Below, piece by piece: positions 2,147-2,438 of a stretch of 64,000 nt of DNA. Location: positions 30,976,001-31,040,000 of the forward strand of contig CP086569.2 in assembly GCA_009914755.4 (NCBI GenBank). Reading direction: 5' to 3'. Position numbers and translations under genes: made by a program. The first letter of the stretch is position 1. Every line of letters begins with the position of its first letter. This DNA is from the human T2T-CHM13v2.0 reference genome, Homo sapiens. Below the pieces are notes generated by a model that had not been told where the DNA came from, did no database searches, and saw only the letters and a list, made by a program, of their open reading frames with translations.

Positions 2147-2438
2147 TTTTTTTTTAGACAGAGTCTTGTCCTGTTGCACAGGGTGGAGTACAATGGCGCC
2201 ATCTTTGCTCACTGCAACATCTGCCTCACGGGTCCAAGCGATTGTCCTCCCTCAGCCTCCCAGGTAGCTGGGACTACACCACACTGGGACTACACCAGCT
2301 GCCACCATGCCTAGCTAACTTTTTGGATTTTTAGTAGTGACAGCGTTTCACTGTATTGGCCAGGATGGTCTTGATCTCTTCACCTTGTGATCCCCTTGCC
2401 TTGGCCTCCAAATTTGCTGGGATTACAGGCCTGAGCCA
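2147..2438 (-). mobile_element. Alu of the AluS type, antisense, about 292 bp, with 5'-end truncation and CpG decay (unit 1)
   Basis: On the + strand a 9-T run is followed by 'agacagagtcttgtcctgttgcacagggtggagtacaatggcgccatctttgctcactgcaac...cctcagcctcccaggtagctgggactaca...tttttagtagtgacagcgtttcactgtattggccaggatggtcttgatctc...gccttggcctccaaatttgctgggattacaggcctgagcca'. This is the reverse complement of an Alu right and left monomer ending in its poly-A. The S-type diagnostic 'aatcgcttg...gttgcagtgagc' is visible in the reverse complement. Many CG>TG/CA changes are present. A 16-bp internal duplication 'gggactacaccacact' is also present. Confidence 0.9.

What the first reader, a model, noticed from the sequence alone, without database searches (positions are those of the whole stretch)
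2147..2438. A decayed antisense AluS is a fixed component of every unit, so array amplification post-dates an old Alu insertion
The same truncated Alu occurs at the same phase in all 27 units. Its CpGs are largely mutated to TpG/CpA, and it carries a 16-bp internal duplication ('gggactacaccacact').

Because all copies share these same lesions, the Alu had already aged before the 2.42-kb unit was amplified or homogenised to about 98-99% identity. The array is therefore primate-specific. Its present copies are much younger than the Alu itself.

This gives a relative clock. Divergence between units should be far lower than divergence of the Alu from the AluS consensus.
Basis: partly seen in the sequence, partly recalled or inferred. 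Interest (0 to 1): 0.5.

Follow-up and report, generated by a model that had tools for sequence, protein, structure and literature searches.

The report
Fossil Alu inside DYZ2/HSat1B satellite

Summary
There are 26 complete antisense Alu copies, plus a 21-nt stub at the window start, spaced about 2,420 bp apart. All copies are 5'-truncated by 12 nt and all carry the 16-bp-period duplication. All 48 substitutions relative to a published AluY consensus are present in every copy. The Alu is 17.8% diverged from that consensus (11.6% at non-CpG sites; 19 of 22 CpGs lost). The copies differ from each other by only 1.3%.

The array is DYZ2/HSat1B. Its consensus length (2,420 bp), GC content (24.4%), CpG density (1 per 151 bp), three-part anatomy and the 'ACATACG' junction all match published descriptions. 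[quoted passage not shown] The composite was first described in 1984.

Three refinements apply:
- **Subfamily:** the call sits on the AluS/AluY boundary (diagnostic positions split 4:4), and published RepeatMasker-based work calls it AluY.
- **Timing:** a divergent outside copy (L034) shows that about 30% of the lesions became fixed after the composite unit had already duplicated. The Alu therefore aged partly inside the satellite.
- **Clock:** the satellite mutates about 10–15 times faster than autosomes, and its changes are transversion-rich. The "relative clock" is qualitative only.

Novelty: none.

The parts
1..64000 (+). Tandem array of the 2,420-bp DYZ2/HSat1B unit: 25 complete units plus 2 partial ones
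   Evidence: Alu spacing; unit alignment and 2,420-bp consensus; 24.4% GC and 1 CpG per 151 bp, matching Hallast et al.
1..21 (-). Stub of a 27th Alu (its sense 5' end), cut by the window edge
   Evidence: Window 1-25 maps to unit consensus position 272
2147..2438 (-). Decayed Alu, with its sense strand on the minus strand. It is 5'-truncated (starts at consensus base 13) and has an A9 tail. This is the first of 26 full copies; the others start at 4566, 6986, 9404 ... 62594
   Evidence: Alignment to the published AluY consensus: 48/269 substitutions and +15 nt; copy list; sub-threshold hit to the Alu-derived family mir-1268
2147..2155 (-). Alu poly-A tail (T9 on the + strand), abutting the AT-rich segment of the preceding unit
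   Evidence: Sequence
2268..2299 (+). 16-bp-period tandem duplication inside the Alu right arm: CTGGGACTACACCAca / CTGGGACTACACCAgc
   Evidence: 26 matches with at most 1 mismatch, 0 expected by chance; net +15 nt against the consensus; 28-nt versus 13-nt loop
2439..3012 (+). GC-richer, non-Alu segment of the unit (40% GC, 7 CpG; 'HSATI' in the RepeatMasker sense). It ends with ACATACG at 3006-3012
   Evidence: AT profile and ACATACG once per unit, 27 times in the window and only on the + strand; Hallast et al. place ACATACG at the HSATI/AT-rich junction
3013..4565 (+). Extremely AT-rich segment (about 86% AT, about 1,554 bp). It holds 45 of the 46 alignment columns with gaps and the highest inter-unit diversity (2.15%)
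43240..62593 (+). Local three-unit (7,257-bp) higher-order periodicity produced by recent multi-unit duplication
   Evidence: 48080-55336 versus 55337-62593: 99.82% identical, 13 mismatches, no gaps. Shifted blocks give 99.72-99.74%. u20 and u23 share del3@1682

Best explanation
The window is human satellite DYZ2 (HSat1B; 'HSATI' in Dfam/RepeatMasker). This is a composite 2.42-kb tandem repeat made of three parts: a 5'-truncated, heavily decayed Alu of the AluSc/AluY lineage, a 574-bp GC-richer segment, and a ~1.55-kb segment that is about 86% AT.

The Alu is a passenger fossil. It was captured once in the founder unit, together with its truncation and its 16-bp duplication. It has since been copied with the unit by unequal exchange and gene conversion (concerted evolution).

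Lesions that arise in one unit are either lost or spread through the array. Present copies therefore share all their old lesions and differ only by about 2 recent private changes each. Roughly two thirds of the decay predates the earliest detectable split between copies of the composite unit. About 30% accumulated inside the already-duplicated satellite, in a hypermutable, transversion-prone context.

Shown here: identity as an Alu, sharing of lesions, the match of unit anatomy to DYZ2, recent multi-unit duplications, and the existence of less-decayed outside copies. Inferred: single capture, absence of function, in-satellite hypermutation as the cause of the excess divergence, and chromosomal location (Yq12 versus an acrocentric short arm is not resolved).
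For: **Array and Alu**
- 26 copies at about 2,420-bp spacing.
- Mean unit divergence 1.75%.
- All 48 lesions are present in all 26 copies.

**Match to published DYZ2**
- Consensus of 2,420 bp, 24.4% GC, 1 CpG per 151 bp, and ACATACG at the junction between the GC-richer and AT-rich segments.
- These equal the figures in Hallast et al.: a final 2,420-bp consensus, 24% GC, 1 CpG per 150 bp, a 5'-truncated Alu, and ACATACG at that junction.
- Frommer et al. [quoted passage not shown]

**Outside copies**
- 17 contigs in bacterial isolate assemblies and 31 metagenome loci carry the same Alu/flank junction. The isolate contigs are 94.2-99.6% identical to the unit consensus (15 of 17 at 98.3% or above).
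- This matches the reported HSat1B contamination of microbial databases.

**Stepwise decay**
- Three-way partition with L034: 34 shared-derived, 14 window-only, 9 L034-only, 3 where all differ.
- L002 keeps the consensus base at 7 lesion sites, and site 205 is ancestral in 5 outside copies.

**Recent unequal exchange**
- Three-unit blocks are 99.82% identical.

**Mutation spectrum**
- Old non-CpG lesions: 10 ts to 16 tv (P=0.003 against a 2:1 expectation).
- Within-array variants: ts/tv 0.65-0.82.
- Pedigree data report Yq12 at 1.99e-7 against an autosomal 1.37e-8.
Against: - No reference genome, RepeatMasker or Dfam library could be run here. Identity with DYZ2 rests on matching published descriptors and on contaminant contigs, not on alignment to the deposited consensus.
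My remembered AluY proved wrong at 2 positions.
- L034 is a single 1-kb metagenome contig of unknown host and chromosome. It could come from a non-human primate or a relic copy.
- L002's ancestral sites cluster at one end and only partly overlap L034's. Mosaic gene conversion or chimerism is therefore possible.
- The transversion-rich private variants could in part be assembly errors.
Confidence: 0.93

Rival explanations
1. Strict form of the reader's model. The Alu sat as a single-copy element for a long time and acquired essentially all its shared lesions there. Only then was the 2.42-kb segment amplified, so that shared lesions measure pre-amplification time.
For: All 48 lesions are shared by all 26 copies, and 27 of 46 outside copies carry 48 of 49. 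34 lesions, the truncation and the duplication are also shared with the most divergent copy, L034.
Against: L034 is collinear with the composite unit (AT-rich, Alu, GC-richer) and has the same junction and duplication, yet keeps the consensus base at 14 scattered lesion sites. L002 does so at 7. Those lesions therefore post-date duplication of the unit and were fixed by homogenisation. The older lesions already show the transversion-rich spectrum seen in current within-array variation (shared-derived 7 ts: 9 tv).
Confidence: 0.15
2. The satellite (AT-rich plus GC-richer segments) already existed as an array. An Alu retrotransposed into one unit, and that variant swept through the array by unequal exchange.
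For: This process is documented for younger Alu insertions in DYZ1/DYZ2 units, which then expanded (Hallast et al., Fig. 4f legend). Concerted evolution is clearly active here.
Against: There is no target-site duplication: the best TSD-like pair is no better than 67% of random AT-rich flanks. The 5' end is truncated with no TSD, which looks like a rearrangement junction rather than an insertion end. Every outside copy recovered, including the most divergent, has the Alu at the same junction, although the search pattern itself required that junction.
Confidence: 0.2
3. The Alu-derived segment is retained because it has a function, for example as a Pol III promoter or a mir-1268-like hairpin driving satellite transcripts.
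For: Rfam gives a hit to the Alu-derived mir-1268 family at 2251-2317 on the minus strand, E=6e-4.
Against: The score is 33.9 bits against a gathering threshold of 83, and the duplication enlarges the loop from 13 to 28 nt. The B-box CpG is mutated (GATCGAGAC to GATCAAGAC) and the first 12 nt are missing. Inter-copy diversity in the Alu (1.31%) is higher than in the neighbouring GC-richer segment (0.88%), so there is no sign of extra constraint.
Confidence: 0.03

Closest known systems
DYZ2 / HSat1B (Dfam/RepeatMasker 'HSATI', DF0000210), the Yq12 and acrocentric short-arm satellite
   Same: 2,420-bp consensus; three-part unit; one 5'-truncated, ~18-20% diverged Alu per unit; ACATACG junction; 24% GC; 1 CpG per 150 bp; units more than 98% identical; evolution by unequal exchange
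   Different: Nothing detected. The window's Alu consensus differs at about 3 positions from the commonest variant among outside copies (98.97% identity class). That is ordinary sub-array variation.
AluY / AluSc8-lineage SINE
   Same: Dimeric Alu with an A-rich linker and an A-tail; left arm with the Sc/Y-type 'CACGAGG...GAGATCGAGACCATCC'; 6-A linker and GTAGTCCC as in AluY
   Different: S-type bases at 4 of 8 Sc/Y diagnostic positions. Divergence of 17.8% is far above what I recall for dispersed AluY copies (own knowledge). There is no TSD, a 12-nt 5' truncation and a 15-nt internal duplication.
Younger Alu insertions into DYZ1/DYZ2 units that then expanded with the unit (Hallast et al. 2023)
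   Same: A retroelement copy is carried along and multiplied by satellite expansion and contraction, which marks related units
   Different: Those insertions are recent, lineage-specific and present in a subset of units. This Alu is a constitutive part of every unit.

Membership tests
DYZ2 / HSat1B composite satellite | Tandem unit of about 2.4-2.5 kb (published consensus 2,420 bp) | tested here: met
   Modal spacing 2,420 bp and consensus 2,420 bp; published value
DYZ2 / HSat1B composite satellite | [quoted passage not shown] | tested here: met
   Alu at 1-292 (51% GC), 293-866 (40% GC), 867-2420 (14% GC); published description
DYZ2 / HSat1B composite satellite | One 5'-truncated, ~20% diverged Alu per unit | tested here: met
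   Starts at consensus base 13; 17.8% substitutions plus a 15-nt insertion; one per unit
DYZ2 / HSat1B composite satellite | 'ACATACG' at the HSATI/AT-rich junction; 24% GC; 1 CpG per 150 bp | tested here: met
   ACATACG at unit position 860-866, once per unit; 24.4% GC; 1 CpG per 151 bp
DYZ2 / HSat1B composite satellite | Direct alignment to the deposited DYZ2/HSATI consensus, and location in Yq12 or an acrocentric short arm | not testable with these tools
   No human reference or Dfam library is available. As a proxy, human-contaminant contigs in 17 bacterial assemblies are 94.2-99.6% identical to the unit consensus (15 of 17 at 98.3% or above)
Alu SINE | Sequence homology to the dimeric Alu consensus, with an A-rich linker and a poly-A tail | tested here: met
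   82% identity over consensus positions 13-281 of a published AluY sequence; linker and A9 tail present
Alu SINE | Flanking target-site duplication | tested here: not met
   The best TSD-like pair is no better than 67% of random AT-rich flanks. This is expected if the 5' end is a rearrangement junction, and it does not affect the homology call
   4 S-like and 4 Y-like of 8 AluSc/AluY diagnostic columns (AluSc from memory). Non-CpG divergence: AluSc 11.6%, AluY 11.6%, AluSx 12.8%, AluJo 18.3%. The published annotation is AluY, rooted on AluSc8

The most novel reading that the evidence does not exclude
The ancestral state of the embedded Alu is known, so every lesion can be polarised. The HSat1B Alu could therefore serve as a built-in recorder of satellite-specific mutation and homogenisation. 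On this reading, the transversion-rich spectrum (ts/tv below 1) has acted through most of the satellite's history. L034 and L002 would then represent early-branching, less-decayed HSat1B lineages that have not been described separately, and they would allow the order of lesion fixation to be reconstructed.
Probability: 0.3. Interest if true: 0.3.

Novelty: already known. Interest (0 to 1): 0.07.

Why it matters
It matters little as a discovery. 'One Alu per 2.47-kb repeat' was published in 1984, and the T2T-Y and 43-Y-assembly papers give the Alu's divergence, its truncation and the unit identity.

The practical value is twofold:
- The window can be annotated confidently as DYZ2/HSat1B.
- Divergence of a transposable element embedded in a satellite should not be read as age. 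Roughly a third of this Alu's decay was fixed by concerted evolution after the unit began duplicating, and the satellite context mutates much faster than the genome average and with a different spectrum.

Tried and rejected
1. **A ~12-kb period in the 2-kb composition profile.** This looked like a five-unit higher-order repeat. It is aliasing of 2-kb bins against a 2.42-kb unit: in 2,420-bp bins GC is flat at 0.241-0.250.
2. **TSD search around the Alu.** Nothing above the AT-rich background.
3. **Rfam scan of one unit.** Only a sub-threshold Alu-derived mir-1268 hit and no SRP hit. It is useful as tool-based support for Alu ancestry and for the extra 15 nt, not as evidence of a gene.
4. **TRF.** Its maximum period of 500 cannot see the 2.42-kb array. 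It reported only a 230-bp, 1.9-copy feature inside one AT-rich segment.
5. **My remembered AluY consensus.** It carried two AluYa5-type bases. I corrected it with the sequence printed in PMC8097388. The conclusions did not change.
6. **Literature text holding an AluSx consensus.** Searched for, not found.
7. **Frommer et al. 1984 (PMC318713).** Not held; only its title could be cited.
8. **Distribution of HSat1B in other apes.** The papers reachable only show that 'HSat1B' is an annotation class in the ape T2T CenSat tracks. They discuss HSat1A expansions, not HSat1B.
9. **L038's four 'ancestral' sites.** They lie at the Alu 3' end, where the contig continues into a different A-rich tail. I treated this as an Alu-Alu recombinant or a chimera, not as a less-decayed lineage.

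Full report

Yes. Window 2147-2438 reads as an antisense Alu: T9, then '...agacagagtcttgtc...', ending in '...gggattacaggcctgagcca'. BLAST of this 292-bp segment against the window returns 26 ungapped full-length copies on the + strand at 97.3-100% identity. Spacing is 2,394-2,421 bp, with a mode of 2,420.

The 30-nt motif spanning the internal duplication occurs 26 times with at most 1 mismatch. None is expected in 100 dinucleotide shuffles. The window starts at unit position 272, so bases 1-21 are the cut end of a 27th Alu.

Aligning the 25 complete units gives a 2,420-bp consensus. Mean pairwise divergence is 1.75%, ranging from 0.04% to 3.2%.

**2. Is it an Alu, how decayed is it, and which subfamily?**

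I then found a printed AluY consensus in PMC8097388. It showed that my remembered AluY carried two Ya5-type bases. The figures below use the published sequence.

- The element begins at consensus base 13, so it is 5'-truncated by 12 nt.
- It has 48 substitutions in 269 aligned positions (17.8%).
- 26 of 225 non-CpG positions differ (11.6%; Jukes-Cantor 12.5%). These are 10 transitions and 16 transversions.
- 22 of 44 CpG positions differ.
- Of 22 consensus CpGs, 3 survive, 13 became CA/TG/TA and 6 were lost by other changes.
- The element carries 15 extra nucleotides. These are explained by the repeat CTGGGACTACACCA(NN) occurring twice at a period of 16 (+ strand 2268-2299).

A tool-based cross-check supports this. 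The only Rfam match in a whole unit is a sub-threshold hit to mir-1268 at 2251-2317 on the minus strand. To my knowledge that family derives from the Alu right arm. In the alignment its loop is 28 nt instead of 13 nt, which is the same 15-nt surplus.

The subfamily cannot be resolved here. Non-CpG divergence is 11.6% to AluSc, 11.6% to AluY, 12.8% to AluSx and 18.3% to AluJo. At the eight columns where AluY and AluSc differ, the element is S-like at four and Y-like at four. The AluS-type consensus sequences are from memory.

**3. Are the lesions shared?**

Yes. All 48 substitutions (46 against AluSc) are present in all 26 copies. Only 30 of 292 columns vary among the copies, and 19 of those are singletons. 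Copies differ from the array consensus by 0-7 positions (mean 0.70%) and from each other by 1.30%.

**4. What is the array?**

The unit has three parts:

| Part | Unit positions | GC | CpGs |
|---|---|---|---|
| Alu | 1-292 | 51% | 4 |
| GC-richer segment | 293-866 | 40% | 7 |
| AT-rich segment | 867-2420 | 14% | 5 |

The whole unit is 24.4% GC with 1 CpG per 151 bp. The heptamer ACATACG occurs exactly once per unit (27 times, + strand only), at the boundary between the GC-richer and AT-rich segments.

These features coincide with published descriptions of the human satellite DYZ2/HSat1B.

- **Hallast et al. [quoted passage not shown] They also report a final 2,420-bp consensus, the ACATACG segment at the HSATI/AT-rich intersection, 24% GC and 1 CpG per 150 bp.
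- **Rhie et al. [quoted passage not shown] Most repeat instances are over 98% identical, and evolution is by unequal exchange. [quoted passage not shown] Their Alu tree is rooted on AluSc8.
- **Altemose et al. [quoted passage not shown] The finding is therefore already known in every essential respect. That includes the contrast between the Alu's ~20% divergence and the under-2% divergence among units.

**5. Independent copies**

Rhie et al. report that HSat1B contaminates microbial databases. I therefore scanned the prokaryotic genome collection and the metagenome collection for the Alu/flank junction 24-mer. The scans returned 17 and 31 loci respectively.

The contigs in bacterial isolate assemblies are 94.2-99.6% identical to the window's unit consensus over up to 2.5 kb, and 15 of the 17 are at 98.3% or above. 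One of them (L009) has an Alu identical to the window's consensus. This supports a human origin. Of 46 near-full Alu copies, 27 carry 48 of 49 lesions (counted against my first AluY version) and 35 match the exact duplication pattern.

**6. A refinement of the timing argument**

L034 is a 1,028-bp metagenome contig (OOQC01050357.1). It is collinear with the unit across AT-rich, Alu and GC-richer segments at 87-89% identity. It has the same truncation point, the same junction and the duplication (with one mismatch). Yet it keeps the consensus base at 14 lesion sites scattered along the Alu.

With the published AluY as outgroup, the sites partition as follows:

| Class | Sites |
|---|---|
| Shared-derived | 34 |
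| Window-only | 14 |
| L034-only | 9 |
| All three differ | 3 |

About two thirds of the decay, plus the truncation and the duplication, therefore predate the split of these two lineages of the composite unit. About 30% arose afterwards, yet is fixed in all 26 window copies and in nearly all outside copies. That is the signature of concerted evolution, not of ageing before amplification.

A second, partial witness is L002, a contaminant scaffold in a Mycobacterium isolate assembly. It spans the Alu/flank junction and keeps the consensus base at 7 of 41 covered lesion sites, four of them shared with L034. Lesion site 205 is ancestral in five outside copies.

Caveats:
- L034's host and chromosome are unknown.
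- L002's ancestral sites cluster at one end, so mosaicism or chimerism cannot be excluded.
- Up to four 'lesions' may simply be S-type ancestral bases.

**7. Why the 'clock' is only qualitative**

A corrected non-CpG divergence of 12.5% would need roughly 57-125 My at commonly used primate rates of 1-2.2e-9 per site per year. Those rates are my own knowledge. That is longer than the age of the S/Y Alu lineages, again from my own knowledge. The element must therefore have evolved faster than the genome average.

Three results point the same way.
- Pedigree data give de novo SNV rates of 1.99e-7 per base per generation for the male-specific Y including Yq12. The rate is 1.33e-7 for the acrocentric short arms and 1.37e-8 for autosomes. 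The acrocentric short arms also show CpG>TpG depletion and C>G excess (10.64898/2025.12.16.694519).
- The Alu's non-CpG lesions are transversion-rich (10:16; P=0.003 against a 2:1 expectation).
- Variants among the window's units are also transversion-rich, with ts/tv of 0.65, 0.72 and 0.82 in the three segments.

I infer that much of the decay happened inside the satellite. In addition, inter-unit divergence is continually reset by exchange.

**8. Mechanism visible in the window**

- The last ~19 kb has a three-unit periodicity. Window 48080-55336 is 99.82% identical to 55337-62593 (13 mismatches in 7,257 bp, no gaps), and blocks shifted by one or two units give 99.72-99.74%. Adjacent units there differ by up to 1%.
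- Units u20 and u23 share a 3-bp deletion.
- Units u2 and u4 are 99.88% identical across an intervening unit.
- Units 10-14 (23917-35987) are the most divergent, at 2.3-3.2% from the others.
- All but one of the indels lie in the AT-rich segment, and none lies in the Alu.

These patterns are what unequal sister-chromatid exchange or gene conversion in multi-unit registers would produce, as published for Yq12.

**9. History of the Alu's arrival**

No target-site duplication is detectable. The 5' end is truncated without one, which looks like a rearrangement junction. I favour capture in the founder unit over later insertion into a pre-existing array. The latter cannot be excluded, because my outside search required the Alu junction.

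There is no sign of function. The Alu is more variable among units (1.31%) than the neighbouring GC-richer segment (0.88%). Its B-box CpG is mutated. The mir-1268-like hit scores 33.9 bits against a gathering score of 83.

**10. Verdict**

The core logic is right. The subfamily label is uncertain, 'aged before amplification' is about two thirds true, and the clock is not linear.
- Novelty: already known (1984; 2021-2023 T2T work).
- Interest: low.

Noticed in passing
window 43240-62593: Local three-unit (7,257-bp) higher-order repeat. 48080-55336 versus 55337-62593 is 99.82% identical with no gaps, and u20 and u23 share del3 at unit position 1682. Recent multi-unit tandem duplication.
   Followed up: yes
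window 23917-35987 (units 10-14): A block of units that are markedly more divergent (2.3-3.2% from the rest, and from each other) sits between two more homogeneous blocks. Units 1-7 and 17-25 are only 1.0-1.5% apart.
   Followed up: partly
window ~32887 (unit 13, unit position 1710); also units 8, 14 and 16 at the same position: A 24-bp deletion in unit 13, and 2-bp deletions at the same unit position 1710 in three other units. This looks like an indel hotspot in the AT-rich segment. All but one of the indels in the window lie in the AT-rich part.
   Followed up: partly
whole window, all three unit segments: Variants among units are transversion-rich (ts/tv 0.65-0.82), unlike typical human polymorphism. 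The cause is either a satellite-specific mutational process (the literature reports C>G excess and CpG>TpG depletion on the acrocentric short arms) or partly assembly error.
   Followed up: partly
L001-L017 (GTDB representative genomes, e.g. LZSC01000004.1 Mycobacterium sp., BMRF01000089.1 Actinomadura cremea, NZ_QLZA01000025.1 Bifidobacterium tibiigranuli): Seventeen species-representative bacterial assemblies contain short contigs that are 94-99.6% identical to this human satellite unit. This is human DNA contamination of the kind reported by Rhie et al.
   Followed up: partly
L034 (OOQC01050357.1) 4-962; L002 (NZ_NKRE01000200.1) 1-382: Divergent HSat1B copies (87-89% and 94% identity to the unit). 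They keep the Alu-consensus base at 14 and 7 of the window's lesion sites. Their origin (chromosome, and host for L034) is unknown.
   Followed up: partly
L033 (BNJU01004413.1) 1-4378 versus 4379-5892: An HSat1B unit directly adjoins a GGAAT/ATTCC-rich block (63 pentamers per kb). This is an HSat3/HSat1B junction like the DYZ1/DYZ2 interspersion of Yq12 or the chr15 short arm.
   Followed up: no
L022 (OLNF01013708.1) 1-170 versus 171-3672: A 170-bp HSat1B fragment is joined to 3.5 kb of 55% GC sequence. This is probably a chimeric metagenome contig (human plus microbial).
   Followed up: no
window 34529-34959: TRF reports a 230-bp period (1.9 copies, 76% matches) inside one AT-rich segment. 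BLAST of AT-rich sequence against the unit shows many 72-79% direct and inverted self-matches. The AT-rich part therefore has old internal repeats.
   Followed up: no
window 2251-2317 (-) and the equivalent position in every unit: Sub-threshold Rfam hit to the mir-1268 precursor family (33.9 bits against a gathering score of 83). It reflects Alu ancestry and is not evidence of a miRNA gene.
   Followed up: yes
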